Part shown: positions 7,086 to 39,756 of the stretch, in pieces
Layout of the letters: the number at the start of each line of letters is the position of its first letter
How positions within the stretch are numbered: the first letter of the stretch is position 1
Source of the DNA: Candidatus Parvarchaeota archaeon
GTDB lineage: Archaea > Nanobdellota > Nanobdellia > WJKC01
Assembly: GCA_017608505.1 (NCBI GenBank)
Contig: JAFCFT010000003.1
Span: 234 to 64,233, forward strand
DNA length: 64,000 bases
Direction: 5' to 3'
Notes under the pieces: model-generated
What the model saw: the letters and a program-made list of their open reading frames with translations, nothing else
Databases searched by the model: none
Told to the model about the DNA's origin: nothing
Translations under genes and position numbers: made by a program

Positions 7086-7574
7086 ATGCCTAGAAAGGCT
7101 TCTGAAGAAGAGTACGAATTAGTGCCTGTGAGCCCTATTAAAAGGCTTGAAAGGGAAATTGAAGATTTAAAGAAAAAAAAGGTTGCTGAAATCCCTATAG
7201 AAAAACTTGGAGACAATATTGAAAAACTAAATGAGCAAGTAAGCAAATTAGTGACTGTAAATATTAATCTCCAAGCAAAAATAACTGAACTGCTGATAAA
7301 AAATGCTGAGTTAATAGAAGGAGTCACCGAAATGGTTGAACTATTAAAGAGGGCTTCAGAAGTTGAGGTAACGGCAGAAACAAAGCCAGAACAAAAAATA
7401 GACTTGTCTCCAGTAGTCAACGAATTAAAAAATATAAGCTCGCAAAATGCTCAAATACTTGAAGGCTTTAAAAGATTAAATGAATATATGCAAAAGACGT
7501 ATAGAAGAGGTATGCTTGAAAAGGTGCTTGAAGCGCCAAGTCAAAGAACCATGCCTGAAGGTGGAAAAATTTGA
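7086..7574 (+). CDS. Coiled-coil protein, first gene of the pilus locus
   Basis: 162 aa with heptad-rich sequence (LEREIEDLKKKK..., LNEQVSKLVTVNINLQAKITELL). Its stop overlaps the start of pilin 1. Confidence 0.5.
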   Translation: MPRKASEEEYELVPVSPIKRLEREIEDLKKKKVAEIPIEKLGDNIEKLNEQVSKLVTVNINLQAKITELLIKNAELIEGVTEMVELLKRASEVEVTAETKPEQKIDLSPVVNELKNISSQNAQILEGFKRLNEYMQKTYRRGMLEKVLEAPSQRTMPEGGKI

Positions 7575-8023
7575 ATAAAAAAGCAATTACTCCAGTCATT
7601 GCAGTTGTATTGTTGCTAATGATGACTGTGGCTGCAGCAGGAGCTGCTTTTTTTTGGATAACAACAATACAAAGCAGGATACAGGGGCAGATAGGAACGC
7701 AAACAACAGAATCAACAGGACAAGCAAGACAGTTTCAAATAATAAGTGCTGAATGCTCAAATGCGTCTCCAAACTTAATTAATGTAACAATCCAAAATGT
7801 TGGAAATTTGCAAATAGATGCTGGCACAACAGCAATTACAGTTACTGACAATTTAGGCCAAGTCATAGCAACAAACATATCGACAATGGAATCTGCATTA
7901 GAGAAAGGGGACATAACAACAATCAGATTTGCAACAGAAGCGCTTACAAGCGGAAAAACATACGGCTTAAAGATAACGCTTCCAGGCGGAGCAGAGCAGA
8001 CAACAGTATGCATTAGTAAGTAA
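7571..8023 (+). CDS. Archaeal type IV pilin-like protein 1 (class III signal peptide, Pilin_N-like)
   Basis: N-terminus (M)NKKAITPVIAVVLLLMMTVAAAGAAFFW: a basic leader followed by a hydrophobic helix. Several N-X-S/T sequons and two Cys. TTG start. Confidence 0.75.
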   Translation: MNKKAITPVIAVVLLLMMTVAAAGAAFFWITTIQSRIQGQIGTQTTESTGQARQFQIISAECSNASPNLINVTIQNVGNLQIDAGTTAITVTDNLGQVIATNISTMESALEKGDITTIRFATEALTSGKTYGLKITLPGGAEQTTVCISK

Positions 8024-8024
8024 A

Positions 8025-8034
8025 GTATATAAAT
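8025..8034 (+). promoter_or_regulatory. TATA-box-like element upstream of pilin 2
   Basis: GTATATAAAT lies about 25-30 nt upstream of ATG 8058. This spacing fits a leaderless archaeal transcript. Confidence 0.3.
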
Positions 8035-8057
8035 CCTAACGCATTATATAAAAACTA

Positions 8058-8516
8058 ATGTTTAACAGGAAAGCAATTACTCCAGTCATTGCAGTTGTAT
8101 TGTTGCTAATGATGACTGTGGCTGCAGCAGGAGCTGCTTTTTTTTGGATGACCACAATTCAAAGCAGAATACAAGGGCAGATAGGAACTCAAGTTTCAGA
8201 AACAACGCTTACAACAACTACGACGTTAAACATAGTAAATGTAATATGCAATGCTTCTCCAGGAATGGTTAATATCACAATACAAAACACAGGAAGCAAC
8301 ACAATAGTGTCAGGAACAAGCGCACTAACAATAACAGACACGCAGGACAGAGTATTAAAAACAGCAACAACGACAAGCCCTTCATTTGCGCAAAACGAAA
8401 TAATAACAATAAATTACACAATTGGAGAAGGAGTAATAACTGCAGGAACAACATATGGAGTTAAAATAACGCTTCCAGGCGGAGCAGAGCAGACAACTGA
8501 CTGCATAGCGCAATAA
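8058..8516 (+). CDS. Archaeal type IV pilin-like protein 2 (paralog of pilin 1)
   Basis: MFNRKAITPVIAVVLLLMMTVAAAGAAFFW. The N-terminal 80 nt and C-terminal 32 nt are identical to pilin 1; the core differs. Confidence 0.75.
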   Translation: MFNRKAITPVIAVVLLLMMTVAAAGAAFFWMTTIQSRIQGQIGTQVSETTLTTTTTLNIVNVICNASPGMVNITIQNTGSNTIVSGTSALTITDTQDRVLKTATTTSPSFAQNEIITINYTIGEGVITAGTTYGVKITLPGGAEQTTDCIAQ

Positions 8517-8554
8517 GAAAAGAATTATAAGTTATCTATTATTTATTAATTTTA

Positions 8555-9451
8555 ATGAAGGCGCAGTCAGCAATAATAAGCACAATACTATTATCAAGCA
8601 TTATCCTTTCCATTGTTACTGCAACTTTTATCTGGGGACAGCCATTGGTCCAAAAAACAACAGATAAAATTAAGATAGACACTTTAACTGAAATGTTAAA
8701 AACTATTAAAAATGGAATTGACAATGCTCAGCAGACTGGAAGCCCGTCTCAAGTGCAATTAGACATTTCTGGCGCAACAGTGATTATAAAACCAGATGAC
8801 AATGCGATAGCTGTAAAAACAAAGACTACAATACCAATAATAACATCGTATACTTTTGTTCCATTAAGTTATACTGAATTGCCGTTTGAAAATGAATTAA
8901 TAGATATTAACACTTCGCATATTAACAGCACTCCTGTTTTTACGCCTGAAGACTATGTTGCTGGAACAGACATACGCTTTGGAAATGTTACATTAGAAAA
9001 CGAAATTTACAATGTCACTACTTTTTATACAGGGGCAAGTTATGACGTTGCTTGCTTTTATCAAGGACAGTACGCAACGCAGGATGAATGCGTAGACGAG
9101 GGCCAAGATTTTGTTAAAAATGACACAACATACACCCTCTCATGGATAAGCTCAGATGGAACTGAAGTAATACTTATAGGCCCTGAAGTGGAAAATTTAG
9201 GAGTGCTTGGCACAGACCCAGGAGGCATAATAATAGGAAAAAGCCTGCCTATAAGCGGCGTGCAAAATGTTGAATTAAGACTTGCATATAGGGGATTGAT
9301 TGACGCCTCTGGAAGAGTAACAAAAACAGTGCTTCAATGCACAAGAGGCTGCAGGACTGGCGAAGGAAGGAAAAAATTAAAAATTTCGTTAGACAGGGTT
9401 GAGAGAACGGAAAACGCAACATACTTTTACGTGAACCTGCAATTTGAATAG
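8555..9451 (+). CDS. Pilin-like protein (298 aa) with class III signal-like N-terminus
   Basis: MKAQSAIISTILLSSIILSIVTATFIWGQP, followed by a beta-rich region with many sequons. Confidence 0.6.
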   Translation: MKAQSAIISTILLSSIILSIVTATFIWGQPLVQKTTDKIKIDTLTEMLKTIKNGIDNAQQTGSPSQVQLDISGATVIIKPDDNAIAVKTKTTIPIITSYTFVPLSYTELPFENELIDINTSHINSTPVFTPEDYVAGTDIRFGNVTLENEIYNVTTFYTGASYDVACFYQGQYATQDECVDEGQDFVKNDTTYTLSWISSDGTEVILIGPEVENLGVLGTDPGGIIIGKSLPISGVQNVELRLAYRGLIDASGRVTKTVLQCTRGCRTGEGRKKLKISLDRVERTENATYFYVNLQFE

Positions 9452-9502
9452 AACCATAAAATCCTTAAACATAGAACAACTATTTTATCTTGAGGGATAA
9501 TA

Positions 9503-12500
9503 ATGGTCAATATTTATAAAAGACTTTCAAAAAGGCTTAAAGAAGCAAAGGAGAAATTGCTGGAAGAAGAATTAAAAGCTCCTGAAAAGCCGGCTGCGCC
9601 TGAAATTAAAGAGCTTCCAAGACCTATCTCACTTAAAAAACCTCCTGAATTGATTGAGGCTCCTAAAGTTCCTGAGATTCCAAAAATTCCTAAAATAGAG
9701 CCTAAGAAAGTTGTTGCTAAAGCGCCTGAAGCTCCAAAATTAATAGTCCCCCCGCAGCAAGTGATAGTGCAAGCGCCTGTAGTCAAGCCAGAAATAGTTA
9801 AAGAGGCTGCGATGGAAGTTCCAGAAGGGCTTGAAACTGGAAGAGCATTTAAAATGAAATACAAGCCAATAAGCATGGAAATACCAGAAGAATTTACTGA
9901 AGCGGCTGGCAAAGGGTTGGAAGCAAAAAAAGAAGTATACATGAAAAAATTAAGAAAAATTGATGAAAAAGTGCCATTAATAACCTTAAAGACAAAAGGC
10001 AAAGAAGTAGTAGTCTCGTGGGCAAACATAAAATGGAATCCTGCATCAAGAAGTCTCATATATTATGTTTACGAACCGAAATTAAATGACAAATTAAGGA
10101 CAACGCTTGACGAAGCAAAAACCCTTCTAAGGCAAAAACTAGACATAGACTTTACTAAGATAAGAATTGAAAAAGCATACGAGTACTTAATGAGCAAATT
10201 TGATGCAGTGCTTAATGAAATGGGCGCAAAAATAACTCCTAAAGAAAAAATCATACTTAATTATTATGTCTTCAGGGATTTTATAGGGCTTGGAAAAATA
10301 GAGCCTTTGCTTCATGACAAAAATTTGGAAGATATTCACTGCGACGGCGCAGGAGTGCCGTTATTTGTAACGCACAGAAATCCATTGTATGGAGAAATGC
10401 AGACAAACATCATATTCAAGACAAAAGAAGAGCTTGACTCATTTGTTTTAAGGCTTGCGCAAAAATGCGGAAAAGCGTTAAGCATTGCAGAGCCTTTGCT
10501 TGACGGAGCCCTTCCAGACGGGTCCAGGGTGCAGATAACATATGGAACAGATATTGCAATGAGAGGCTCGAATTTTACAATTCGTAAATTCACTGAAAAG
10601 CCAATAACCCCAATTGATGAATTAAATTACGGCACAGCAAGCCCAGAAATCCTTGCTTATCTTTGGATGGCTGTGGAGTCAGGCCTTTCAATGCTTATTG
10701 CTGGGGCAACTGCTACTGGAAAAACGAGCTTCTTAAACGCTTTAAGCATGTTCATTAACCCTGAACTGAAAATAATAAGCATAGAAGACAGTGTTGCAGG
10801 AGACACGCCTTTTGTTTTTTTAAACAGCAACAAATACAGGCAGGAAACAATAGGGAATTATATAGATACTGTAATGAATAAACATGGATTTGAAAAACTA
10901 AGCAGCGGACACCACATATGCCCTAATTATGAGAATATCAAAGTACCCACAATAGATTTCAACAACAAACTTACATTCTTGCCAGTAAATGCCTTGATAA
11001 GGCACAAAGTAAACAAAAAAGGATACGAAATTATAACAAAAACAGGGAAAACAATTAAGGTAACCGAAGATCACTCACTATATATCCTGGGTCCAGATAT
11101 TGAAAAAATGAGTCCTAAAAGATTTGTTAAAGAAATTGCGCAGGGAAACAAACAAAAAGCGCAAATTAATGAAGATATTGCGTTTTTAACAGGGTTAACT
11201 GTAACTCACGGGGTGGTGGACAAAAATAAAAATGTGTATTATCCAAAAATCAAAAAATTAGAAAACATCTTGAATAAATTAGGATTTAAATATAAAATTA
11301 GAAAATACCATATAAGAATTTCAAGAAAAGAATTCTATGATTACTTAGTAAGTCTTGGCATAAACTTAAACTCAAAATGGATTAATGAAAGAACGCCTAA
11401 ATGGGTTGTGTCTTTAGAAGGCGCACACTTAAGAAATTTCATTCTTGGGTACAGACTAGGCAACAAAAAAAAGGTATATTATATAAAACCAAAATTATGC
11501 AAAGCAAAGGCGAGCAAGTTAAGAAAAGGCGATTGCATAATTTCTGCAAAAACGCTTGAAAAAGATTACAAAGGATTGGAGTGCATTAACTTAGACTTAA
11601 AGAACTTTGGCAAAAGAGCAAAAATAATAGACGGCAAAGTCAAAGTTGGATCATACGCTATGCCATGCAAAGTAAAACTTGATAAAGACCTGCTTGAATT
11701 TATTGGATTATGGATTGCTGACGGTTGTTATGATGAACGCGGCAAATATGTAATAATCAGCGCGCCAAAACCAGAAACTGAAAATGTGGTAAAAAGAATC
11801 TGTGAAAAATTCAAGTTTAAATATAAAAAGCATTCAGACGGTGTTTCCCTCAACATATATGGGAGCATATTTTATTATTTTTTGAAAAACGAGCTTAAAT
11901 TGACCCATTATGCGCATCATAAAACAATGCCTCAATGGGTAAATAAATTATCAAACAAACAGTTAGCAGCATTATTAAGAGGATATTTTGCAGGCGATAA
12001 TAATGACGGAAAATACGAAATGGGTTGTGCAAGCGTATCAAAGAAACTTATAGAAGATATCCAACACTTGTTGTTAAGATTTGGCATAAGATCAACTATA
12101 AGAGAAAAAAAGCAGATATATAATTTAAGTATATCAGAAATTAATAATATAAAAAAGCTAGAAAAAATAGGATTTATACGCAAAGACAGACTAAAAAGAT
12201 TTAAAGAGATAACAAGCAGAAATAAGCAAGATCATGACTGTTCAGATATAATAGACCTTCCAGAAAACTTTTTAATAGCCATATTTGATGAAGCTAAAGA
12301 TACATGGAAATCATTAAAACAGAGATATAAAAAGAAAAAAATTGGAAGAGCATTTCTTAAACAGATAGTAAAGTCTCTTAAAGGAGAAACAAAAGAGTTA
12401 TTGAAAAGCATAATAGACGCTGACTTGTACTTTGAGAAAATCAAAAAGATAAATAAGATTAGATTAAATGAATATGTATATGATTTCTCAGTACAACCTG

Positions 12501-14512
12501 TTCAAAGATTTTGCACTAAAAATGGAATCCTGTGTTCAAATACGCCAGAGCTTAGATTGCCTCACCCTAACTGGATTCCTGAAGTAGCAAGGGCAGGATT
12601 TGGCGTGAAAAGATATGGCGAAGTTACGATGTTTGATTTGCTTAAAAGCGCTTTAAGACAAAGACCTAACTACGTTATAGTAGGCGAAGTGCGTGGCAAA
12701 GAAGCATACGTCATGTTCCAAGGGATGGCATCAGTACTTGGATGCGAAAAAATTTTTGTAAGCGATACTGAAGGAAATCCAACAATAATGCCTATTAAAG
12801 AATTGGGCAAATACGCATTTAAGAATTGGAAAGCAGTCACATTAAATCCAGGACACGAAGCAAAATTACTGCCAGTAAAAGCATGGGCAAGGCATGGAAA
12901 AAGAACTAAAATGATAAAAATTGAAACACACACAGGAAGAGAAGTCATTGTAACGCCAGAACACTCTTTATTCACGTATGATAAAAAACAAGGAATATTT
13001 CCAATAGAAGCAAACAATTTAACGCAAGGGAGCATAATATTAGTGCCTTCGAAAATTCCTTGCAATTACAAAAACATTGAATATTTTGATTTAACAAATT
13101 TAAAAGGAATTAGAGTATTAGCGCCGGAATTAATTAAAAAAGCTGTCCAAAAAATTGGATTTAAAAAAGCTTGCGAGATTTGTTGCGTTAAGTCGATAAA
13201 TGATTATTACTCAAAAAATGCATGTTCAGCGCTTCACTCAGACAAATTCAAAAAATTAATGGATGCGTCAAAAATAGACTATTCTAATGAAGAATTTATG
13301 GTGCGCTTTGATAGAAAAAGTGAAACATTCCCAAATAAATTAAAGATAAGCAATGAATTGTTGCGTTTGATAGGATACTACTTAAGTGAAGGCACGCTTA
13401 ACACGGCTAATAAAAATAATTCAATTGCGTTATATAATTCTGATAAAAAAGTTCTTAGAGATATGAAACAATGCATTAAAAAAGTCACTGGAAAGACTCC
13501 TAAAGAAAGATTAACAAAAGGTTGGGGCAAGACGCTTGAACTAAGATTCAATCACAAAGTATTATACGAATTTTTAAAACAATTATGCGGTCTTGGAAGT
13601 TCAAATAAAAAAATTCCAGAATTTGTATTTGGATTAAGCAAAGAAAAAATAGGACAGGTGTTGGCAGGAATGTACGCAGGAGATAGCAATTTTAGTGCAA
13701 AAGCAATTACATATTACACTAAATCAAAAGAACTTGCAAATACTTTACTTTATGCCCTGCTTTGCTTAGAAATTGTTGGCAGAGTAAGATCTCACAAAGG
13801 AATCTATGAAATAAAAATATACAGAAGCGATTTCAGAAAAAAACTAAGCGAGTATGTTAAACCAGTAAATAAGAAATATGTATTCAAAAAAGCAAGATAT
13901 TTAAAAAACATAATAGGCGACGTTTACTTAGATAAAGTGAAGAATATTACTGAAATAAGACTAAAAAGCCCATTAAATGTTTATGATATATCAGTGCCGC
14001 CGACTGAAAATTTTGTAGGCGGATTTGGAGGAATAATGCTCCATAACACAGGCCATCCAAGCTTCGGCACCCTTCATGCAGACAGCGTAGCTACAGTCAT
14101 AGACAGACTGACTACAGAACCAATAAATCTTCCTAAAGCAATGCTTGAAAATCTTGATTTAATTGTATTCCTGATTTTAACAAAGAGAAAAGGCGAGTAC
14201 GTAAGAAGGGTCAACGAAATAGTAGAAATTTTAGGGTATGACCCTAAAACAAGAAACTTAATTACAAACAGAGCGTTTAGATGGGACCCTGAAGAAGACA
14301 AATTTGTTTTGCTTAAAAGCGTGCTTCTTGATAAAATAAGAGAAAAACTTGGATACACAATCGAGGAGCTAAAATTAGACATGCTTAGAAGAATCAAACT
14401 GTTAAAATGGCTTCAAAAACACAAAATCACGGATTACAAAGAAGTTGCCCGTTATTTCAAAATGTATTACACAAGTCCTGAAAAGGTCGATAAGCTTGTG
14501 AGGAGAGCTTAA
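9503..14512 (+). CDS. Type II/IV secretion (FlaI/PilB/TadA/KlbA-type) ATPase precursor containing two inteins
   Basis: Extein motifs: Walker A GATATGKTS, Asp box IISIED|TPELRL, Walker B RPNYVIVGEVRG, His box FQGMA|TGHPSFGTLHADS. 1669 aa in total; the predicted spliced product is 646 aa. Confidence 0.9.
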   Translation: MVNIYKRLSKRLKEAKEKLLEEELKAPEKPAAPEIKELPRPISLKKPPELIEAPKVPEIPKIPKIEPKKVVAKAPEAPKLIVPPQQVIVQAPVVKPEIVKEAAMEVPEGLETGRAFKMKYKPISMEIPEEFTEAAGKGLEAKKEVYMKKLRKIDEKVPLITLKTKGKEVVVSWANIKWNPASRSLIYYVYEPKLNDKLRTTLDEAKTLLRQKLDIDFTKIRIEKAYEYLMSKFDAVLNEMGAKITPKEKIILNYYVFRDFIGLGKIEPLLHDKNLEDIHCDGAGVPLFVTHRNPLYGEMQTNIIFKTKEELDSFVLRLAQKCGKALSIAEPLLDGALPDGSRVQITYGTDIAMRGSNFTIRKFTEKPITPIDELNYGTASPEILAYLWMAVESGLSMLIAGATATGKTSFLNALSMFINPELKIISIEDSVAGDTPFVFLNSNKYRQETIGNYIDTVMNKHGFEKLSSGHHICPNYENIKVPTIDFNNKLTFLPVNALIRHKVNKKGYEIITKTGKTIKVTEDHSLYILGPDIEKMSPKRFVKEIAQGNKQKAQINEDIAFLTGLTVTHGVVDKNKNVYYPKIKKLENILNKLGFKYKIRKYHIRISRKEFYDYLVSLGINLNSKWINERTPKWVVSLEGAHLRNFILGYRLGNKKKVYYIKPKLCKAKASKLRKGDCIISAKTLEKDYKGLECINLDLKNFGKRAKIIDGKVKVGSYAMPCKVKLDKDLLEFIGLWIADGCYDERGKYVIISAPKPETENVVKRICEKFKFKYKKHSDGVSLNIYGSIFYYFLKNELKLTHYAHHKTMPQWVNKLSNKQLAALLRGYFAGDNNDGKYEMGCASVSKKLIEDIQHLLLRFGIRSTIREKKQIYNLSISEINNIKKLEKIGFIRKDRLKRFKEITSRNKQDHDCSDIIDLPENFLIAIFDEAKDTWKSLKQRYKKKKIGRAFLKQIVKSLKGETKELLKSIIDADLYFEKIKKINKIRLNEYVYDFSVQPVQRFCTKNGILCSNTPELRLPHPNWIPEVARAGFGVKRYGEVTMFDLLKSALRQRPNYVIVGEVRGKEAYVMFQGMASVLGCEKIFVSDTEGNPTIMPIKELGKYAFKNWKAVTLNPGHEAKLLPVKAWARHGKRTKMIKIETHTGREVIVTPEHSLFTYDKKQGIFPIEANNLTQGSIILVPSKIPCNYKNIEYFDLTNLKGIRVLAPELIKKAVQKIGFKKACEICCVKSINDYYSKNACSALHSDKFKKLMDASKIDYSNEEFMVRFDRKSETFPNKLKISNELLRLIGYYLSEGTLNTANKNNSIALYNSDKKVLRDMKQCIKKVTGKTPKERLTKGWGKTLELRFNHKVLYEFLKQLCGLGSSNKKIPEFVFGLSKEKIGQVLAGMYAGDSNFSAKAITYYTKSKELANTLLYALLCLEIVGRVRSHKGIYEIKIYRSDFRKKLSEYVKPVNKKYVFKKARYLKNIIGDVYLDKVKNITEIRLKSPLNVYDISVPPTENFVGGFGGIMLHNTGHPSFGTLHADSVATVIDRLTTEPINLPKAMLENLDLIVFLILTKRKGEYVRRVNEIVEILGYDPKTRNLITNRAFRWDPEEDKFVLLKSVLLDKIREKLGYTIEELKLDMLRRIKLLKWLQKHKITDYKEVARYFKMYYTSPEKVDKLVRRA
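10790..12541 (+). mobile_element. Intein 1 (584 aa) with LAGLIDADG homing endonuclease, inserted in the Asp box
   Basis: Block A SVAGDTPFVF (Ser1), block B KVTEDHSLYI. LAGLIDADG motifs LLEFIGLWIADGCYDE and LAALLRGYFAGDNNDG. C-terminal YVYDFSV...NGILCSN|T (Thr+1). Confidence 0.85.
12731..14047 (+). mobile_element. Intein 2 (439 aa) with LAGLIDADG homing endonuclease, inserted in the His box
   Basis: Block A SVLGCEKIFV (Ser1), block B VIVTPEHSLFT. Motifs LLRLIGYYLSEGTLN and IGQVLAGMYAGDSNF. C-terminal VYDISVP...GGIMLHN|T. Confidence 0.85.
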
Positions 14513-15376
14513 ATGAACTTTGGAGAATTCAGCTACAAACTTGTTCATAAAATTGCAAGAAAATACAGCCACTTATTTAAAGACATAGCAGAAGACCTTC
14601 AAGTCAGCAACATGCCTTACTCCATAGAAGAGTACTTTGCAATGATGATAGTCACGATTATTTTTTCAATGCCCTTAATAGGAATTATAGCATTTCTTTT
14701 TTACTTGCTAATTAATGACTTGCTTATTTCAATTATTGCAGGAGTAGTGTTTTACTCCATAATTTTAGTAGGAATAATTGCGCTTTATTATGTATACCCT
14801 TCGCAAGTCGCAAGCAGCAGAAGAAAAAAAATAGACAATGCGCTTCATTTTGCAACAATATATATGCAGACCCTTGCAGGAACAGGAGCGCCCCCGCACA
14901 TAATATTTAAAATACTGGGCTCTTTTGAAGAGTTTAGCGAGATATCTGAAGTTTCAAGAAAAATAAACAGAGACATTGAAATTTTTGGCATGGACCCTGT
15001 TGAAGCAATAAACAGAGCTGCAGAAAGAACGCCAAGCAACAATTTAAGAGAACTTCTTTACGGAATGAGAAGCACAATAACAAGCGGCGGCGACTTAAAA
15101 AGATACTTGGAAGAAAAAGCAAACGCATTTGTAAATAACTTTAGAAGAAAACTTGAAGAATACACTAAAGTGCTTGCTGTTTTCATGGAAATATATATTA
15201 CAATGGTCATTGTAGGAAGCGTTTTAGCATTAGTGCTTACAACTATAATGTCCTTAATCAGCGGAGGAATTTTAGGAATAGAACAACTGCAAATATTAAT
15301 CGTTACAGTAGGCCTGCCAATCCTTTCAGGCATATTCATATTGTTGATAAAATCTGTAAGCCCAACAGAGGTGTAA
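14513..15376 (+). CDS. Pilus platform membrane protein, single T2SSF domain (TadB/FlaJ N-half-like)
   Basis: IDNALHFATIYMQTLAGTGAPP...MDPVEAINRAAERTPSNNLRELLYGMRSTITSGGDL, flanked by TM helices. ATG follows the ATPase stop directly. Confidence 0.8.
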   Translation: MNFGEFSYKLVHKIARKYSHLFKDIAEDLQVSNMPYSIEEYFAMMIVTIIFSMPLIGIIAFLFYLLINDLLISIIAGVVFYSIILVGIIALYYVYPSQVASSRRKKIDNALHFATIYMQTLAGTGAPPHIIFKILGSFEEFSEISEVSRKINRDIEIFGMDPVEAINRAAERTPSNNLRELLYGMRSTITSGGDLKRYLEEKANAFVNNFRRKLEEYTKVLAVFMEIYITMVIVGSVLALVLTTIMSLISGGILGIEQLQILIVTVGLPILSGIFILLIKSVSPTEV

Positions 15377-15379
15377 AAT

Positions 15380-16498
15380 TTGGAAAAAAAAGATACATTG
15401 ATAATTGTATGGTCTGGAGTTATTGCAGTTGCGCAATTAGTGATTGGGTTATTCTTAACTAACTTTGAGTTAATATACGTAGGTTATTTCGGGGTTGCTG
15501 CATTAATGATAATTATATTTCCATATTCACTGATAGTTTATTTAAGGGTGCGCAAAGCAAAAATGATGGAAGAATACTTTCCTTCTTTTTTAAGAGACAT
15601 TGCTGAAGCAAAAAGAGCAGGAATGACAATTCCAAATGCAATTGCGCTTAGCGCGCAGACAGATTACGGTCCACTAACAAAAGAAATCAAGAGGATGAAC
15701 AACTTGCTTTCATGGGGCGTTCCGTTTCCAGAAACAATCAAATTGCTGCAAAAAAGAGTAAAATACAGCACATACATAAAAAGAGGCCTTGCAATACTTC
15801 TTGAATCATATTACACAGGGGGAAGGATTGAAGACGCAATGGATGCTGTAGCAGAAAGCACGCGGCTTCTTAAAGAAGTGGAAAAAGACAGAGAGTCTGT
15901 TCTTCAACAGCAGTTGATAATTGTATATTTAATTCATTTCATATTTGTCGGAATACTGGTCGCATTGTACAAAATATTAATACCGCTTTTGACATTTCAA
16001 GGAGGAGGAAGTGCTAGTCTAATCACAAGCTTTGGAGGAGGGCAGTCACCCCCTCTTGATTTTTACAAATTGTTGTTTTTTCTTACAATGACAATACAAT
16101 CTTTCAGCAACGGGCTGGTTGCGGGCGTTACAAAGGAAGGAAGTCTTGCAGCAGGAACAAAACATGCAGGAATAATGATTAGCACAGCATTGCTTGCATT
16201 TGCAATATTCATATTTCCAAAAACATACGCAATCAATGTTATGAGCTCTAAAACAGAAGTCACTACAAATGAACTAGTGGAATTCTTCGGATCAGTGACC
16301 CTTGAGAATGAACCAATATCAAATGTTGAAGTGACTGTGAATTTTGGAGGTGTTGCTGACTCCACTTACACGGACGAGTATGGAGACTTTAGCATAAAAA
16401 TTAGAGCTCCAACAGTTGAAGGCAATTACATTGCTAGGGTGAGCTCCACATATGAAGGTTTTGAAGCGGTTGTTGACATCCCAATTGTTGTCAGATAA
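15380..16498 (+). CDS. Pilus platform membrane protein, single T2SSF domain (TadC/FlaJ C-half-like) with C-terminal beta-sandwich
   Basis: FPSFLRDIAEAKRAGMTIPNAI...WGVPFPETIKLL...LLESYYTGGRIEDAM plus TM helices. The C-terminal VEVTVNFGGVADSTYTDEYGDFSIKIRAPTVEGNYIARV looks CarboxypepD_reg-like. TTG start 3 nt after the previous stop. Confidence 0.75.
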   Translation: MEKKDTLIIVWSGVIAVAQLVIGLFLTNFELIYVGYFGVAALMIIIFPYSLIVYLRVRKAKMMEEYFPSFLRDIAEAKRAGMTIPNAIALSAQTDYGPLTKEIKRMNNLLSWGVPFPETIKLLQKRVKYSTYIKRGLAILLESYYTGGRIEDAMDAVAESTRLLKEVEKDRESVLQQQLIIVYLIHFIFVGILVALYKILIPLLTFQGGGSASLITSFGGGQSPPLDFYKLLFFLTMTIQSFSNGLVAGVTKEGSLAAGTKHAGIMISTALLAFAIFIFPKTYAINVMSSKTEVTTNELVEFFGSVTLENEPISNVEVTVNFGGVADSTYTDEYGDFSIKIRAPTVEGNYIARVSSTYEGFEAVVDIPIVVR

Positions 16499-17252
16499 AA
16501 AAGGGGCAGTAATTGACATTGACCTAATAATATCTTATTTGATATTCATGGGCCTAATAATTGCAGTAGTGCAATTTACGCTTGGATTAGTTACTGTATT
16601 TAGCAATGATTTCAGAACCCTTTCAAGAGAAAAGAATATGCTAAGCGCTTCAAAATTAATAAGCGCAGAATTTAAGGCGTCGGATATAAACAAATTGTGC
16701 AACGAATTGAATTACACAGGAATAAGAGTAAAACACGTAGAATACGAAGTGCTGGGGTTTTTTATGCCGAAAAAGGACACTGCATACGAACTGCCAAACA
16801 CAGGCGCAGAACCAAAAGTGCTGTTTTTAAGAGATAATAATTACTTGCGCGTTATTGTGGGCTCTGGGGCAGGCAGCGACACAAAAGTCACTGTTTATGT
16901 ATCTATGAAATATGGCACAAGTGTTGCAAACAAAACCCTTGAGTCAGGCGATTCGTATACAACATATTACGACTCCAAGGGCTATTTTGTTGTAAAAATA
17001 ACATCAACTGTAGGCAACGGAGACCTTGACGAAATTGTAATAGGACCAATCAACAACAGAACATTAATAATGCCTGAAGTCAATAATGTGACAACCAGCA
17101 ACGTGTTTGTCGGCGATTTAAGTTTTAATAATAGTTGCGGGAGGACAGCAATCAAAGGACCACAGTCATCTTTTTTAAGATACGGAACAATAATGCACGA
17201 TTCTGAATTGTATCCTGTAAAAATTAAGGGTGATATATGGTGGACAGGTTAG
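16452..17252 (+). CDS. Pilin-like protein (266 aa)
   Basis: ...SDKKGAVIDIDLIISYLIFMGLIIAVVQF is class III signal-like. The start is uncertain: ATG 16452 overlaps the upstream gene by 47 nt, with TTG 16485/16488 as alternatives. Confidence 0.5.
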   Translation: MKVLKRLLTSQLLSDKKGAVIDIDLIISYLIFMGLIIAVVQFTLGLVTVFSNDFRTLSREKNMLSASKLISAEFKASDINKLCNELNYTGIRVKHVEYEVLGFFMPKKDTAYELPNTGAEPKVLFLRDNNYLRVIVGSGAGSDTKVTVYVSMKYGTSVANKTLESGDSYTTYYDSKGYFVVKITSTVGNGDLDEIVIGPINNRTLIMPEVNNVTTSNVFVGDLSFNNSCGRTAIKGPQSSFLRYGTIMHDSELYPVKIKGDIWWTG

Positions 17253-18253
17253 GCTTTGTAAAAACTTTGGAAGCAATTCTTGCAGCAATAATAATGATGT
17301 CAATGTACGGCATAATTAATGATTTCATAACAAAGCAGGTAGGAGCTTATCAGCGCGACCCGACATTTTTAATGAATGATTTTATTGAGATGCTTGCAAA
17401 AAACAATTTGATAAATGATGCAATAAATAATTATGAGTATTCAGAAATGGACGCGCTTTTTTACGAATATTTCTTAAAATCCATATATTATTACTTTGAA
17501 CCAAGATATTATGAACGTATCAAAGTCAAAAGCGAGATTAACAAAACATATCCAAACATTAGCTTTGTATATCACTTTCCATTTGGCATTGATGAAAACT
17601 CAGTAAGGGTGACTGGTAACGAATACGAATTGCCAACAAAAGCGCTTTTTAATTGGTACGCAACACCAATTGTCTTCTTAGAAGATATCAACAATTCATA
17701 TGTAGAAGTTAATATAACAATTGAAGCGTCTGGAATAGATAATAAGACATTAATGTATTTTGTAAATGACAAACGTTCAATATTGGATGTTCATAAATGG
17801 ACAAAAGTAGACCAAGACATGTACAATGCAACGCTTGTATTGTTTGTGCCAGAAGTGAAAAAGAATGTCTTAACATATGTCTATGCTGCGCAAAATGACA
17901 GCATGATTAATTTCACATATCCTTCTCTTAACAAAAATTTAGATATCCAATATTACCAGCTAAACACTTTTAAAACTACAACCGGTCTTGTTGTGTTCAC
18001 GCCTGAAAATGTAAGCTCAACAAGAGATGACACATACTATATTGAATACACCCTTTACTCTCATCAAGATGATAATTATGCAGACATAAAAATCGTAAAC
18101 AATACAGGAATTACAATAATCCCTGAACTTGATTATGTAAAGCACGGAAGCAGCCCTGCATATGCGACAACAAAAGGAGAATACTCTGTAAAAAGACTTT
18201 TCCCTAAAAAAGGAGGATTTGTTGAATTAACTGTTTATGGAGGATACTCATGA
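17237..18253 (+). CDS. Pilin-like protein (338 aa)
   Basis: MVDRLGFVKTLEAILAAIIMMSMYGII has a G|F...E pattern followed by a hydrophobic helix. Many sequons. Overlaps both neighbours. Confidence 0.5.
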   Translation: MVDRLGFVKTLEAILAAIIMMSMYGIINDFITKQVGAYQRDPTFLMNDFIEMLAKNNLINDAINNYEYSEMDALFYEYFLKSIYYYFEPRYYERIKVKSEINKTYPNISFVYHFPFGIDENSVRVTGNEYELPTKALFNWYATPIVFLEDINNSYVEVNITIEASGIDNKTLMYFVNDKRSILDVHKWTKVDQDMYNATLVLFVPEVKKNVLTYVYAAQNDSMINFTYPSLNKNLDIQYYQLNTFKTTTGLVVFTPENVSSTRDDTYYIEYTLYSHQDDNYADIKIVNNTGITIIPELDYVKHGSSPAYATTKGEYSVKRLFPKKGGFVELTVYGGYS

Positions 18254-21066
18254 AAAAAGCGCAGTTTTTCATTGGAACAATAGTGCTTGTTGCATTATCA
18301 ACATCAATAATTGCAGGCAGCTTGACAATACCAGAACAATTAAAATACAACAGCTTTGAAACTGATTTAAATGACTACAATAATATAATATTTGTTAAGA
18401 ATTCAATTAAGGACTTGTTTAACAATTATTTTACAGACTACTGGATGCTTCCTTATGACTACAGAACAACAATCAAAGTATACAACAATTTTACATTAAA
18501 AGGAAATCTGATAAAAGTTCAATTAGACTTGCCCAATGACATTCATGAAGAGTCGTTAATATTAATTGACAGCGATGGAGATATAGTCCCCTTTGGCATT
18601 GAATGGACAGATGTATCAGAAAAACAAGGCGCATTATACTTTCAGTCGTCTCTTAATTCAATGGATAACGAAAACTATTATTTATACTACAATGATGTTT
18701 CAAACTCAAATAAAGATAATAAATACAAAGAGCAAATGGTAATATACAACAGCTCTTCCGAATACATTGACATTAGAACAGGACTTTACAGTCTAAGACT
18801 AAACAAAAGTCTTGGGGGCGCACTTACAAATCTTAACATTTCTGGAAAAGGGAATGTGCTAAACATTTTAGAAGCAAGGCTTAACTGCTCAGGAACAATA
18901 TATAGCTTGTCTAACAGCAGTAATCAAGAATACGCTATTAATGATTACAATTACTTTTTAGAAGTCGCAATCACAGGCTCAAGATTCACAAACACAAGCT
19001 ACAAAATAAAAGAATATTTCTTTCCAGATAGAATAATAATTAAAGACTTTTTAACTGTTGGAGCAGATTCGCCATGCAGCTCTTGGGAATTTTTTGTTGA
19101 TGCAAAAAAAGATGATCTGCCAAATTACATAGACTCAAAAGAAAATTCTTATGCGCCTGTGCCTGTCATGGACCAAAACGGGCTTGACATGGGGGACTGG
19201 GCAGAATTCTATGGTGACAATTATGCCCTTGGCGTGTTAATAAGCAATAGTTCTCCATACAATTATCTTTCAAGCACAAGCAGCGAGAACATACTTTTGC
19301 TTAGAGCGCACAACGCGTCTCTTTTAAGCAAAGGAGCTTATAACAACACAATTACTATTATTCCAATGCATAATGACTCAATTAAAAATAATCATTTGAA
19401 TTATGAAGTTAATGCGCTCACTTCAAACGATGACTTATTTAATGAAAAACAAGAATTGCTTAATATCCTTAAAAGATACTTTACGCAAGCAAACACATAC
19501 GTAACAGTTACTGTTGACAACGCTCGCTCTATAGAACAGTACAATAACAGATCTAATTGGTACAGCAACTTAACGATGCGCTCCAGCATCAGAGCATTTG
19601 GACCTAATTTCAAGACGCCCCTTGTCATATCTGCAAGATTTCTTAAAGGTTTTGAACCAAGCTCGGTCGTACTAGTTGGCAGTGAAGGACCGCTAATTTC
19701 TCAACTTTCAACAGACAATTATATGAACAATTCATTTAGCCCTCTTCTTAACAACTCTTTAGTAAATAACACGATTCTTGTCCTTAACTTGGATGGGCGC
19801 GACTTTAATGTGAGTATTAACAAACAAGTTGCTGGCCCATTAAGTGCTTATGCATATTATCCGAATGGGACTTTAATCAATTATTATGACATTAACACAG
19901 ATTTTTACAACATAGAATTTAAAGATATAAAGCAGTCTGGATTTTACAACATATCATTTAATGGCACTGATGCTTTATTCTTTGCAAACTCCTCGCTTCC
20001 AAAAATGGTCATAGGACTGCCAGCACAAGTCCATGCTGAGGAATTAATTTTGCCTGTAAATGAGACTACAAATAATATTTCCATTTCAATAGAAGCATTT
20101 AATAACAATGCTAGACTCATTGACTTCTTAAATAACACAGTAGCATCAGACAACGGAAGCACACTAAGCCTTAATGCTGATGTCGTAAAATGTCTTGACG
20201 GATGCTATTATAAACTGTTGCTTGAAAATGCAAGCCCTGCTTTTATTAGCTCATCACTTAATTATGCTTGCGCAAATGCGCTGTCTTGCATTAATCCTGA
20301 TGAACCAAGAGTAGACATAGTAAGTTATGGCCTAACAAGCGAGTCAGGCGCGGATATGCACTATTACTACAATGTGGATACATACTCAACAAATTACAGC
20401 AAAAATACAGACTTAAAGTACAGCTTAAAAGACTATGAAGTCAACAACTCTTATTTTAGCTTTGATTTAGACGACTTAAAATTCATTGTTAACAACACTG
20501 ACTGGAGTCTTGGCTGGACAACCTGCGACCCAGAATGCACAAATGGATTTAACAAAATCAAATTTTTAGAAACTGGTCCAGCACGCGTTGTGTTGTGGGC
20601 AAACGCAAGCCCTTATACAAAATACTATTTTTTCTTTTATTACAATGCTTCATTATTTGATGTTTTTATAGACTCAAGTCGCGAAGTGACTTTTGGACCA
20701 GACTTTAAAGTCGGGGGCAGCGACACTTTGTATTATGATTACTTGGGGTCTGGCTCATTAAGCGAAGGCAATACAGACAATTACATTAACAGAGTGCTGC
20801 TTAAAGGAGTAAACAATTACATTAGAAGAAAAAGCTTAAACAATTCATTTTCTGTTGTCTTTAAGCCGCGCGATTTATCATACAACAACTCTATCTTAGT
20901 CAATGACTCCACAGTGCGCTTTAAAGTTTACAAACCAGGGTTTTTTAGATTTTTAATTGATGTTGACCCAAATAACTATTTATATGACTTAAAGCAAAGA
21001 GAATGGATGTTCTCATTGCATTACAACATAACAGGCCTTACATACACTTTAAGCGAACATTCATAA
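18250..21066 (+). CDS. Large pilin-like/secreted Asn-Tyr-Ser-rich protein (938 aa), putative pilus-associated adhesin
   Basis: MKKAQFFIGTIVLVALSTSIIAGS N-terminus. More than 30 N-X-S/T sequons by eye. ATGA overlap with the upstream gene. Last gene of the co-directional locus. Confidence 0.6.
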   Translation: MKKAQFFIGTIVLVALSTSIIAGSLTIPEQLKYNSFETDLNDYNNIIFVKNSIKDLFNNYFTDYWMLPYDYRTTIKVYNNFTLKGNLIKVQLDLPNDIHEESLILIDSDGDIVPFGIEWTDVSEKQGALYFQSSLNSMDNENYYLYYNDVSNSNKDNKYKEQMVIYNSSSEYIDIRTGLYSLRLNKSLGGALTNLNISGKGNVLNILEARLNCSGTIYSLSNSSNQEYAINDYNYFLEVAITGSRFTNTSYKIKEYFFPDRIIIKDFLTVGADSPCSSWEFFVDAKKDDLPNYIDSKENSYAPVPVMDQNGLDMGDWAEFYGDNYALGVLISNSSPYNYLSSTSSENILLLRAHNASLLSKGAYNNTITIIPMHNDSIKNNHLNYEVNALTSNDDLFNEKQELLNILKRYFTQANTYVTVTVDNARSIEQYNNRSNWYSNLTMRSSIRAFGPNFKTPLVISARFLKGFEPSSVVLVGSEGPLISQLSTDNYMNNSFSPLLNNSLVNNTILVLNLDGRDFNVSINKQVAGPLSAYAYYPNGTLINYYDINTDFYNIEFKDIKQSGFYNISFNGTDALFFANSSLPKMVIGLPAQVHAEELILPVNETTNNISISIEAFNNNARLIDFLNNTVASDNGSTLSLNADVVKCLDGCYYKLLLENASPAFISSSLNYACANALSCINPDEPRVDIVSYGLTSESGADMHYYYNVDTYSTNYSKNTDLKYSLKDYEVNNSYFSFDLDDLKFIVNNTDWSLGWTTCDPECTNGFNKIKFLETGPARVVLWANASPYTKYYFFFYYNASLFDVFIDSSREVTFGPDFKVGGSDTLYYDYLGSGSLSEGNTDNYINRVLLKGVNNYIRRKSLNNSFSVVFKPRDLSYNNSILVNDSTVRFKVYKPGFFRFLIDVDPNNYLYDLKQREWMFSLHYNITGLTYTLSEHS

Positions 21067-23159: not shown

Positions 23160-23250
23160 GACTTTAAATTTTAGGGATAGGTTCTTTTTAATGTTTACGT
23201 AGGAGATTATCAAAGCATTTAAAAATAAACAATTTTTTAAAAATTCTCTA

Positions 23251-26200: not shown

Positions 26201-26343
26201 AACTGACCCAAATGCTAAAAGAGCACATAGATTGGGTAACTAAGCAGACTAATTCAGAAGTTTCGTTTTCAAAAACAGTTGGAGACGCAACAGAATACAA
26301 AATAAAAGACAAAGAGATTAAAATCAATATAAAGACTATTTAA
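23251..26343 (+). CDS. ileS: Isoleucyl-tRNA synthetase
   Basis: HIGH-type HLGH, KMSKS, a CP1 editing region, Zn-type CxxC pairs, 1030 aa. Confidence 0.95.
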
Positions 26344-39646: not shown

Positions 39647-39756
39647 GCCCAGGTAGCTCAGTAGGTAGAGCGTCCGACTGTTACCCAACGCTGAACAGAA
39701 CATTACGGCGTTGGATTGATATCGGATGGTCGCAGGTTCGAGTCCTGTCCTGGGCG
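39647..39756 (+). tRNA. tRNA-Asn(GUU) with a 37-nt canonical (37/38) intron
   Basis: Manual cloverleaf: acceptor GCCCAGG/CCTGGGC, D arm GCTC..GAGC, anticodon stem TCCGA/TCGGA, loop CT-GTT-A. Intron 39684-39720 has an internal CCAACGC/GCGTTGG helix. T arm GCAGG-TTCGAGT-CCTGT. No encoded CCA. Confidence 0.85.

What the first reader, a model, noticed from the sequence alone, without database searches (positions are those of the whole stretch)
7086..21066. 14-kb co-directional type IV pilus / Tad-like locus with unusual architecture
Eleven tightly packed or overlapping + strand genes make up the locus. They are a coiled-coil protein, two near-duplicate major pilins, a 298-aa pilin-like protein, an intein-laden secretion ATPase and a platform split into two single-T2SSF-domain proteins. 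Three further proteins have class III signal-like N-termini, ending in a 938-aa giant. No archaellum-specific components (FlaH, FlaF/G, FlaC/D/E) and no prepilin peptidase are present in the window. The locus therefore looks like an adhesion or attachment pilus rather than a motility organelle. In a reduced, probably episymbiotic archaeon, such a pilus is a candidate host-contact apparatus. The combination of features is not one I recognise as described: split TadB/C-like platform, double-intein ATPase, giant terminal pilin-like protein.
Basis: partly seen in the sequence, partly recalled or inferred. Interest (0 to 1): 0.75.

Follow-up and report, generated by a model that had tools for sequence, protein, structure and literature searches.

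The report
DPANN archaeal adhesion-pilus operon
This is a real ten-gene operon for a type IV adhesion pilus (not a swimming organelle) in a tiny DPANN archaeon, ending in a giant sugar-binding-like tip protein; its odd features (split membrane platform, inteins in the motor ATPase) have each been described before.

Summary
Window 7086-21066 (+) carries 10 co-directional genes, not 11. They are a coiled-coil protein, two major pilins, a PilB/VirB11-type ATPase interrupted by two LAGLIDADG inteins, a FlaJ/TadC-type platform split into an N-half and a C-half gene, and four further proteins with conserved class III signal N-termini (298, 266, 338 and 938 aa).

It is not an archaellum. The ArlI, ArlJ, ArlF and ArlG models all score far below their cut-offs. 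No KaiC/ArlH-like ATPase lies in the window. The spliced ATPase matches A. fulgidus GspE better than FlaI.

The whole cassette, flanked by thermosome and RFC genes, recurs in about 11 related DPANN genomes. The ATPase plus split platform recurs in about 50 loci, including Aenigmatarchaeota. The closest ortholog has no inteins, which fixes both splice junctions exactly.

The 938-aa protein models confidently as a pilin-like helix followed by galactose-mutarotase/GH38/PL4-like beta domains. Relatives insert lectin modules, so it looks like a modular tip adhesin.

The literature already reports split platforms (Epd/Tad, DPANN), inteins in archaeal VirB11 ATPases, and large adhesins with class III signals. 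This is a new member of a known kind, of moderate interest. The host-contact role is inferred only.

The parts
7086..7574 (+). cc162: 162-aa soluble coiled-coil protein, first gene of the operon. A TATA-like box (TTTATAAT) lies about 26 nt upstream.
   Evidence: It has no TM segment and only coiled-coil noise hits. It is conserved at the head of the cassette in L001, L002, L006 and L008-L011.
7571..8023 (+). pilA1: 150-aa major pilin with a class III signal (MNKKA|ITPVIAVVLLL...). TTG start preceded by a GGTGG Shine-Dalgarno-like motif.
   Evidence: TIGR02537 scores 38.1 bits against a cut-off of 20. [quoted passage not shown] It has 3 N-X-S/T sequons.
8058..8516 (+). pilA2: 152-aa second major pilin and tandem paralog of pilA1, with its own TATA-like box.
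   Evidence: TIGR02537 scores 36.8 bits. It is 57% identical to pilA1, with the N-terminal 44 codons at 91% nucleotide identity.
8555..9451 (+). p298: 298-aa pilin-like protein (MKA|QSAIISTILL...), a putative minor pilin.
   Evidence: The [KR][GA]|Q[SVA] motif is conserved in orthologs. DUF7289 matches below threshold in 6 of 8 family members. Four Cys are conserved.
9503..14512 (+). Assembly ATPase precursor, 1669 aa. The spliced extein is 646 aa with a Pro/Lys/Glu-rich N-terminal extension.
   Evidence: PF00437 is met. The extein scores 426 bits against 2OAP (A. fulgidus GspE), 311 against FlaI and 153 against CpaF. The intein-free ortholog is 649 aa and 78% identical. Most close homologs carry PF23989 PilB3_C.
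10790..12541 (+). Intein 1: 584 aa, Ser1...Cys-Ser-Asn|Thr+1, inserted in the Asp box (IISIED|TPEL). Both LAGLIDADG motifs are intact.
   Evidence: The junction is fixed by the intein-free ortholog, which reads KIISIEDTPELRLPHPNW. Pfam intein and LAGLIDADG models hit. PI-PkoII and TFIIB intein structures match. GC is 0.31 against 0.386 for the extein. No other homolog examined has an intein at this site.
12731..14047 (+). Intein 2: 439 aa, Ser1...His-Asn|Thr+1, inserted at the His box (FQGMA|TGH). It has a LAGLIDADG endonuclease.
   Evidence: The ortholog reads VMFQGMATGHPS at the junction. PI-PkoII matches at 1.9e-22. An allelic intein, 48% identical, sits at the same site in L012. Five further homologs also carry an intein at this site.
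14513..15376 (+). platN: 287-aa platform N-half with one T2SSF domain and about 4 TM segments.
   Evidence: PF00482 scores 53.5 bits. It matches ArlJ model positions 5-249 of 555. The split is conserved in about 50 loci.
15380..16498 (+). platC: 372-aa platform C-half with one T2SSF domain, about 4-5 TM segments, and a C-terminal CarboxypepD_reg-like beta domain (aa 304-365, nt 16289-16474).
   Evidence: PF00482 scores 58 bits. It matches ArlJ model positions 200-445 of 465. PF13620 matches at 4.6e-5. The extra domain is present in L001-L012 (366-385 aa) but absent from most Aenigmatarchaeota loci, where platC is about 270-290 aa.
16452..17252 (+). p266: 266-aa pilin-like protein (…KKGA|VIDIDLII…) with conserved acidic residues just after the predicted cleavage site.
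   Evidence: The conserved motif is [KR][GAS]|Q(V/I)(D/N)(V/I)D. It has a single N-terminal TM segment and no Pfam match. A GGGTGA Shine-Dalgarno-like motif precedes the ATG.
17237..18253 (+). p338: 338-aa pilin-like protein (…LG|FVKTLEAILAAII…), with a bacterial-like G|F…E motif.
   Evidence: The motif K[GA]|F.[KR]T.E is conserved in 10 orthologs. No Pfam family matches. It has 10 sequons.
18250..21066 (+). p938: 938-aa modular pilin/adhesin (MKKA|QFFIGTIVLV…), predicted to sit at the pilus tip.
   Evidence: The [KR][GA]|QFF N-terminus is conserved in all orthologs, which range from 544 to 1337 aa. The AF2 model has pLDDT 85.6 and pTM 0.82, with kinked N-terminal helices 2-25 and 34-64 followed by beta domains. 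Foldseek matches GH38 mannosidase, LacZ, PL4/PL26 lyase and galactose mutarotase at 6e-7 to 1e-5. Only 22 cluster representatives match among 1.84 billion proteins. Relatives carry inserted Laminin_G_3, sialidase-N and DUF2341 modules. It has 35 sequons.

Best explanation
The locus is a single operon for a non-motile archaeal type IV (adhesion) pilus in a DPANN archaeon of the Nanoarchaeia/Woesearchaeota/Parvarchaeota type.

Proposed mechanism, step by step:
1. Six prepilin-like proteins are made with class III signal peptides. A prepilin peptidase encoded elsewhere in the genome cleaves them. (Inferred.)
2. The ATPase is translated as a 1669-aa precursor. It cannot be active until both inteins splice out, because they interrupt the Asp box and the His box. 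(The positions are shown; the consequence is inferred from what is known of secretion ATPases.)
3. The spliced 646-aa hexameric ATPase docks on a heterodimeric platform made of the N-half and C-half proteins. Together these equal one FlaJ/PilC-type protein. (Homology is shown; the complex is inferred.)
4. p298, p266, p338 and the giant p938 form a priming or tip complex. The two major pilins polymerise beneath it. (Inferred by analogy with bacterial minor-pilin/PilY1 complexes and with the modular pilins of S. sanguinis.)
5. p938 presents carbohydrate-binding-type beta-sandwich domains at the tip and binds glycans on another cell or on a surface. In this reduced lineage the most likely target is the host cell envelope. 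(Inferred.)
For: Core components pass curated thresholds.
- T2SSE, two T2SSF domains and TIGR02537 pilin N-termini are all met.

Archaellum models fail.
- ArlI scores 376 against 550, ArlJ 90 against 550, and ArlF/ArlG 23 and 18 against 110.
- No KaiC-like P-loop ORF lies in the window.
- The extein matches afGspE (426 bits) better than FlaI (311 bits).
- Most close homologs carry PilB3_C.

The six pilin-like proteins look exported.
- All six have conserved [KR][GA]|X N-termini followed by one hydrophobic helix.
- N-glycosylation sequons run at 2.0-3.7 per 100 aa, against 0.28 in cytoplasmic proteins of the same window.

It reads as one operon.
- Genes overlap or are tightly spaced.
- Shine-Dalgarno-like motifs precede the internal genes and TATA-like boxes precede cc162, pilA2 and p298.

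It is conserved.
- The whole cassette is syntenic in L001-L012. The ATPase plus split platform recurs in about 50 of 79 DPANN loci.

p938 looks like a modular adhesin.
- The confident model shows a pilin-like helix followed by galactose-mutarotase/GH38/PL4-like beta domains.
- Relatives keep the N- and C-terminal frame and insert LamG, sialidase-N or DUF2341 modules.
- No invariant catalytic-type residues are seen.

Analogues and field data.
- S. sanguinis modular pilins and their glycan-binding tip complex (PMC8179133, PMC9934059).
- Saccharibacteria T4P drive episymbiosis (PMC9894109).
- Woesearchaeota 'archaellin' genes are among the most expressed and have been proposed to act in host contact (PMC11606122).
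Against: - No prepilin peptidase lies in the window. A crude filter also found none near any of the 79 related loci.
- No filament, adhesion or host has been observed.
- The best structural relative of the major pilin is a 'flagellar-like' pilus subunit.
- The placement of p298, p266, p338 and p938 at the tip rests on analogy only. The four families show no detectable homology to each other or to known minor pilins.
- The Foldseek matches to p938 have low global TM-scores (0.16-0.26), so the domain assignments are coarse.
- Intein 1 ends in Ser-Asn rather than His-Asn, so its splicing efficiency is unknown.
Confidence: 0.7

Rival explanations
1. It is a short pseudopilus or bindosome-like surface-display machine rather than a long adhesive pilus. 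The machinery would anchor p938, and perhaps p338, p266 and p298, at the cell surface to bind or process polysaccharides for nutrient scavenging.
For: - p938 resembles carbohydrate-active enzyme scaffolds: GH38, LacZ domain 5 and PL4/PL26 lyases.
- Relatives carry GH88-like and LamG modules.
- The 2026 preprint proposes that substrate-binding proteins with class III signals functionalise TFF machineries.
- NCBIfam gives weak BasE/BasF bindosome hits.
Against: - Two dedicated major pilins resemble a filament-forming subunit over their full length.
- The BasE/BasF scores are far below their cut-offs (178 against 1000, and 41 against 1300).
- No ABC transporter or solute-binding protein lies in the cassette.
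- p938 has no invariant catalytic-type residues.
Confidence: 0.12
2. It is a reduced archaellum (motility organelle), as KEGG and JGI annotation of relatives suggests ('flagellar protein FlaI', flaB, flaJ).
For: - The top NCBIfam hit for the ATPase is the FlaI model, and for the platform halves the ArlJ models.
- JGI names relatives FlaI.
- The pilins hit ArlF and ArlG weakly, and their best structure is a flagellar-like pilus.
Against: - All these scores are well below the equivalog cut-offs.
- There is no ArlH/KaiC-like ATPase, no ArlX or ArlCDE, and no archaellin Pfam hit in the window.
- afGspE outscores FlaI, and close homologs carry the PilB3_C signature.
- The platform is split, whereas ArlJ is a single gene.
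- The 8FK7 filament itself does not supercoil (PMC10334743).
Confidence: 0.05
3. It is a pilus for DNA or cytoplasmic exchange with the host (Ups/Ced-like, or competence-like) rather than for simple adhesion.
For: - The pilins and platform halves give weak UpsA and UpsF hits.
- DPANN archaea depend on host-derived molecules (general knowledge).
Against: - The Ups scores are far below their cut-offs (31 against 130, and 56 against 400).
- No DNA translocase, Ced or ComEC-like gene lies in the cassette.
- The distinctive component is a lectin-like giant protein.
Confidence: 0.05

Closest known systems
Archaeal TFF 'System 1' (Epd-like pili of Methanococcus/Thermococcus) and bacterial Tad pili
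   Same: - The platform is encoded by two adjacent single-T2SSF-domain genes (PMC6668835, PMC4858521).
- The operon is multi-gene, with several minor pilins and large adhesin-like proteins carrying class III signals.
- The 2026 preprint reports System 1 in DPANN.
   Different: - The major pilins here are 150 aa with a globular beta domain, not ~70-aa Epd/Flp-type pilins.
- There is no EppA peptidase and no MinD, TadZ or FlaH-like ATPase in the locus.
- The ATPase resembles afGspE/PilB3 far more than CpaF (426 against 153 bits).
- The gene order is ATPase, N-half, C-half, colinear with an unsplit gene. In Tad, by contrast, TadB corresponds to the C-half and TadC to the N-half.
Euryarchaeal 'System 2' / H. 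volcanii PilB3-PilC3-type adhesion pili and A. fulgidus GspE (PDB 2OAP)
   Same: - This is the best ATPase match.
- The ATPase has an extended N-terminus and a PilB3_C-type C-terminus.
- The major pilins are PilA-like with a TIGR02537 N-terminus, and large adhesin-like proteins lie in the locus.
   Different: - System 2 is defined by a single platform gene; here the platform is split.
- The accessory pilin-like families p266, p338 and p938 have no Pfam counterpart.
Modular type IV pilins and the minor-pilin tip complex of Streptococcus sanguinis (PilB vWA module; PilA-PilC lectin complex); PilY1-type tip adhesins
   Same: - A pilin N-terminal helix is fused to large functional, lectin-like modules.
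- The adhesin is encoded alongside several minor pilins.
- A glycan-binding role is expected (PMC8179133, PMC9934059).
   Different: - There is no sequence homology.
- p938 is far larger and is built from galactose-mutarotase/GH38-like supersandwich domains.
- The setting is archaeal, with no secretin and no retraction ATPase.
Inteins in archaeal VirB11/COG0630 secretion ATPases (21 catalogued in PMC4760082; the KlbA inteins, from my own recollection)
   Same: These are canonical HINT plus LAGLIDADG inteins inserted in conserved catalytic motifs of a P-loop secretion ATPase. The His-box site is reused by allelic inteins in 6 relatives.
   Different: - This protein carries two inteins. None of the best 120 database homologs or the 79 loci has more than one.
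- None of the relatives I examined has an intein in the Asp box. That rests on ORF lengths in the 79 loci and on the five intein-bearing database homologs I read.
- Intein 1 has a penultimate Ser.

Membership tests
Archaeal type IV pilus / TFF assembly system | PilB/VirB11-family assembly ATPase | tested here: met
   PF00437 scores 73.9 bits against a cut-off of 24.9. The extein matches 2OAP at 1.4e-126.
Archaeal type IV pilus / TFF assembly system | Polytopic platform protein with T2SSF domains | tested here: met
   PF00482 scores 53.5 and 58 bits against a cut-off of 25.2, in two adjacent genes that cover the N- and C-halves of the ArlJ/UpsF models.
Archaeal type IV pilus / TFF assembly system | Filament subunits with a class III signal peptide | tested here: met
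   TIGR02537 scores 38.1 and 36.8 bits against a cut-off of 20. The cleavage motifs are conserved in orthologs. A FlaFind-style pattern is specific to the six locus proteins. That pattern is my own implementation, not the published tool.
Archaeal type IV pilus / TFF assembly system | Class III signal (prepilin) peptidase | tested here: not met
   None was found in the 64-kb window. A crude filter found none in the 79 related loci. The rest of the genome cannot be searched here, and this gene is often unlinked.
Archaellum | ArlI and ArlJ at equivalog level | tested here: not met
   ArlI scores 376.5 bits against a cut-off of 550. ArlJ scores 90.5 and 52.6 bits against cut-offs of 550 and 400.
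Archaellum | ArlH (KaiC-like), ArlF/ArlG, ArlX or ArlCDE, and archaellins | tested here: not met
   The only P-loop ORFs in the window are RFC, TIP49 and an ABC ATPase. ArlF and ArlG score 23 and 18 bits against a cut-off of 110. There is no archaellin Pfam hit.
Epd-like / Tad-like (System 1) | Two single-T2SSF platform genes | tested here: met
Epd-like / Tad-like (System 1) | Short major pilins lacking a globular domain; dedicated EppA peptidase; MinD/TadZ/FlaH-type ATPase | tested here: not met
   The pilins are 150 and 152 aa and align over their full length to a globular pilin. No peptidase or second ATPase lies in the locus.
Epd-like / Tad-like (System 1) | ATPase and platform fall in the Epd/Tad clade in a phylogeny | not tested
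   No Epd reference sequences were obtainable. The only proxy is the PDB ranking: afGspE 426, FlaI 311 and CpaF 153 bits.
System 2 / PilB3-type | PilB3-like ATPase with N- and C-terminal extensions | tested here: inconclusive
   PF23989 scores 21.5 bits against a cut-off of 27 in the window protein. It is on record for most close homologs.
System 2 / PilB3-type | Single platform gene | tested here: not met
   The platform is split in every relative where it was found.
Intein (HINT + LAGLIDADG) | Splicing blocks, nucleophiles at both junctions, and a precise in-frame insertion relative to an intein-free ortholog | tested here: met
   PF14890 scores 137 bits and PF14528 scores 112 bits. Both inteins have Ser1, Asn at the end and Thr+1. 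The junctions match the ortholog residue for residue. Splicing activity itself cannot be tested here.
DUF2341 / PilY-like adhesins of archaeal T4P loci | DUF2341 (PF10102) domain | tested here: inconclusive
   One of 8 p938 orthologs matches, at E=0.022. Bona fide DUF2341 occurs elsewhere in relatives P0017 and P0022. A weak profile echo falls at the DUF2341 position in P0022.

The most novel reading that the evidence does not exclude
This cassette could be the host-recognition organelle of a large DPANN lineage, with three further properties.
- The fast-evolving, module-swapping p938 family would be a pilus-tip lectin that sets host range by reading host envelope glycans.
- The split platform in a PilB3/afGspE-like system would be an independent fission, colinear with the unsplit gene and convergent with Epd/Tad.
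- The two inteins in catalytic motifs would make pilus assembly conditional on protein splicing.
Probability: 0.22. Interest if true: 0.65.

Novelty: new member of a known kind. Interest (0 to 1): 0.38.

Why it matters
DPANN archaea are thought to live attached to hosts, but the molecules that make contact are unknown.

This cassette is conserved in one DPANN lineage, and it is probably the source of the highly expressed genes reported as 'archaellin/fla' in metatranscriptomes of Woesearchaeota (PMC11606122).

Two things follow from showing that it is an adhesion-type pilus with a modular, lectin-like tip protein:
- it corrects a common mis-annotation of these genes as motility genes;
- it names concrete candidates for host-binding experiments, namely p938 and the three minor pilins.

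It also supplies a natural double-intein secretion ATPase, and a data point on how often the platform gene has been split.

Tried and rejected
- Word-indexed homolog searches with p938, alone and as an 8-sequence profile, returned only the protein itself and one ortholog. One search was effectively wasted.
- AlphaFold with 2 sequences failed, at pLDDT 27. It worked only with the 23-sequence alignment.
- Foldseek against viral structures gave only low-TM noise.
- Sequence searches of the PDB with the two platform halves found nothing.
- Sigma-70 promoter and intrinsic-terminator scans were at background, as expected for an archaeon.
- hhalign among the p298, p266, p338 and p938 families showed no relationship.
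- The similarity of the p938 N-terminal domain to DUF2341 stayed below threshold.
- A crude filter for peptidases (TM segments plus GxGD/GxHD) in the 79 loci recovered only platN homologs.
- My first regex for intein site A was too loose and was discarded. ORF lengths and direct reading of sequences were used instead.
- An enzymatic (lyase or hydrolase) role for p938 was considered. I rank it low because no invariant catalytic-type residues are seen.

Full report
**What is there**

Window 7086-21066 holds ten + strand ORFs that overlap or lie at most 51 nt apart.
- Shine-Dalgarno-like motifs (GGTGG, GAGGTG, GGGTGA, GGAGGA) precede the internal genes, including the two TTG starts.
- TATA-like boxes lie about 25-30 nt before cc162, pilA2 and p298.
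- This pattern fits one operon with extra pilin promoters.
- Bacterial promoter and terminator scans are at background.
- The flanks are archaeal housekeeping genes: Nop56/fibrillarin and thermosome upstream; RFC, an aminoacyl-tRNA synthetase, TBP and MCM downstream.

**Core machinery**

The 1669-aa ORF carries T2SSE, intein-splicing and LAGLIDADG domains.

The closest relative is contig JAUWZX010000001.1 (727 kb), held as L001 and L011.
- It has the same cassette gene for gene, but with a 649-aa ATPase.
- Its sequence reads ...KIISIEDTPELRLPHPNW... and ...VMFQGMATGHPS...
- This fixes both inteins residue for residue.

| | Intein 1 | Intein 2 |
|---|---|---|
| Protein residues | 430-1013 | 1077-1515 |
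| Window coordinates | 10790-12541 | 12731-14047 |
| Length | 584 aa | 439 aa |
| Junction residues | Ser1...Ser-Asn, then Thr+1 | Ser1...His-Asn, then Thr+1 |
| Insertion site | Asp box (IED\|TPEL) | His box (QGMA\|TGH) |

(Coordinates.)
- Both inteins keep two LAGLIDADG motifs.
- Both resemble PI-PkoII, TFIIB and VMA inteins.
- Both are AT-richer than the extein (GC 0.31 against 0.386).
- Because they interrupt catalytic motifs, the precursor must be inactive until both splice. This is an inference.

The spliced 646-aa extein scores 426 bits against A. fulgidus GspE (2OAP), 311 bits against FlaI and 153 bits against CpaF.

The 287-aa and 372-aa ORFs each hold one T2SSF domain.
- They align to the N-half and the C-half of the ArlJ/UpsF models.
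- Together they equal one FlaJ/PilC-type platform.
- The C-half also ends in a CarboxypepD_reg-like beta domain.

**Pilins and pilin-like proteins**

pilA1 and pilA2 pass TIGR02537.
- They are 57% identical overall.
- The N-terminal 44 codons are 91% identical at the DNA level, against 67% for the rest.
[quoted passage not shown] That filament does not supercoil (PMC10334743).

Ortholog alignments show conserved class III-type N-termini for all six proteins:

| Protein | Conserved N-terminal motif |
|---|---|
| pilA1, pilA2 | [KR]K[GA]\|ITPVIA |
| p298 | [KR][GA]\|QS |
| p266 | [KR][GAS]\|Q(V/I)D(V)D |
| p338 | K[GA]\|F.[KR]T.E |
| p938 | [KR][GA]\|QFF |

- Each motif is followed by a single hydrophobic helix.
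- A FlaFind-style pattern, in my own implementation, selects exactly these six ORFs plus one antisense ORF among 82 in the window.
- N-X-S/T sequons are 7-13 times denser than in cytoplasmic proteins of the window, as expected for glycosylated surface proteins.
- The four accessory families have no Pfam assignment. The exception is a recurrent sub-threshold DUF7289 match for p298.
- The four families are unrelated to each other.

**Not an archaellum**

- ArlI, ArlJ, ArlF and ArlG all score far below their curated cut-offs.
- The only Walker-A ORFs in the window are RFC, TIP49 and an ABC ATPase.
- No archaellin domain is found.
- No prepilin peptidase is found in the window.

**Distribution**

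A scan of one genome per GTDB species found 282 relatives of the ATPase. All of the 79 loci retrieved are from MAGs or single-cell genomes, and nearly all are labelled as DPANN archaea or uncultured archaea.
- Ten-gene synteny, including the thermosome and RFC flanks, holds in L001-L012. These carry Nanoarchaeia, Woesearchaeota, Parvarchaeota or Nanoarchaeota labels.
- The module of ATPase, N-half and C-half recurs in about 50 loci, including Aenigmatarchaeota and Undinarchaeota. No fused platform was seen.
- The split is therefore real and lineage-wide.
- Extracellular components diverge much faster than the motor. In L006 the ATPase hits at 2e-233 while the 995-aa p938 ortholog hits at 2e-20.
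- The terminal giant protein ranges from 544 to 1337 aa in the loci.

Inteins among relatives:
- Of the best 120 database homologs, six carry a single intein. One of them is the L012 protein.
- The six that I read directly all have the intein at the His-box site: L012 (48% identical to intein 2) and five further database homologs.
- None carries two inteins.
- None carries an intein in the Asp box.

**The giant protein p938**

A full HMMER scan of 1.84 billion cluster representatives found only 22 relatives.

With these relatives as the alignment, AlphaFold gave a confident model, pLDDT 85.6 and pTM 0.82.
- The N-terminus forms kinked helices (residues 2-25 and 34-64), with Pro28 invariant. 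This resembles a pilin alpha-1 helix.
- The rest is almost entirely beta domains.

Foldseek against the PDB returns GH38 alpha-mannosidases, LacZ, PL4/PL26 rhamnogalacturonan lyases and galactose mutarotase (E about 1e-6, probability 1.0, low global TM-scores). These share carbohydrate-binding supersandwich and jelly-roll scaffolds.

Longer relatives keep the N- and C-terminal frame and insert extra modules:
- five Laminin_G_3 modules;
- a sialidase-N CBM;
- DUF2341;
- a GH88-like domain.

The invariant residues are mostly aromatic or structural. I read p938 as a modular pilin-type adhesin, not as an enzyme.

**Comparison with the literature**

- Two single-T2SSF platform genes define Epd-like and Tad systems and are attributed to a gene fission (PMC6668835).
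- Makarova et al. describe clade-1 loci with two TadC genes, at least five minor pilins and DUF2341 PilY-like adhesins (PMC4858521).
- Sivabalasarma and Albers (bioRxiv 2026) report two-platform loci in DPANN under System 1 and subsystem 4A. They define System 2 by extended ATPases, a single platform gene and large adhesins.
- This locus mixes a System-2-like ATPase with a split platform. Which clade it belongs to needs a phylogeny that I could not run.
- Inteins in archaeal VirB11/COG0630 ATPases are catalogued, with 21 cases (PMC4760082).
- Modular pilins with lectin modules are known in S. sanguinis (PMC8179133, PMC9934059).
- Woesearchaeota studies annotate such genes as fla genes and find them highly expressed (PMC11606122).

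**Verdict**

This is a genuine, well-conserved archaeal type IV adhesion-pilus operon in a DPANN archaeon. Each 'unusual' feature has precedent. What is new is the lineage-specific set of four pilin-like families, above all the p938 modular adhesin family, and the double intein. The host-contact function is a reasonable inference, not a finding.

Noticed in passing
window 39647-39756 (+): Rfam finds a tRNA spanning 110 nt (62.7 bits) that ARAGORN does not report. It is probably an intron-containing archaeal tRNA.
   Followed up: no
L001 12814-13440 (+): The closest relative has an extra 208-aa Cys-rich (CxxC-type) gene between the p938 ortholog and RFC. The window lacks it.
   Followed up: no
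window 5570-7042 and 21061-23396; L002, L003, L006-L008, L010: The pilus cassette sits in a fixed chromosomal slot across the lineage, with thermosome upstream and the RFC large and small subunit genes convergent downstream.
   Followed up: partly
window 50535-52726 (+): Two adjacent multi-TM ORFs (357 and 373 aa) have no Pfam or NCBIfam match. They lie between two UbiA prenyltransferases and a methyltransferase, and may be a lipid or cell-envelope gene cluster.
   Followed up: partly
L028 3-1793 (+): One Aenigmatarchaeota locus carries a second, divergent pair of platform N-half and C-half genes about 8 kb upstream of the ATPase.
   Followed up: no
window 57907-59718 (+): A 603-aa molybdopterin oxidoreductase (formate dehydrogenase-like domains) is present, which is unexpected in a metabolically reduced DPANN genome.
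   Followed up: no
proteins P0038, P0042, P0044 and others: Public sources (JGI) name close homologs of this ATPase 'flagellar protein FlaI', although the family fails the ArlI equivalog cut-off. This looks like a systematic mis-annotation of DPANN pili as archaella.
   Followed up: partly
window 22203-23396 (-) vs 23251-26343 (+): The RFC small-subunit ORF, called from a GTG start (397 aa), overlaps the start of the 1030-aa tRNA-synthetase gene by about 145 nt. It is also about 60-80 aa longer than its orthologs, so the true start is probably further downstream.
   Followed up: no
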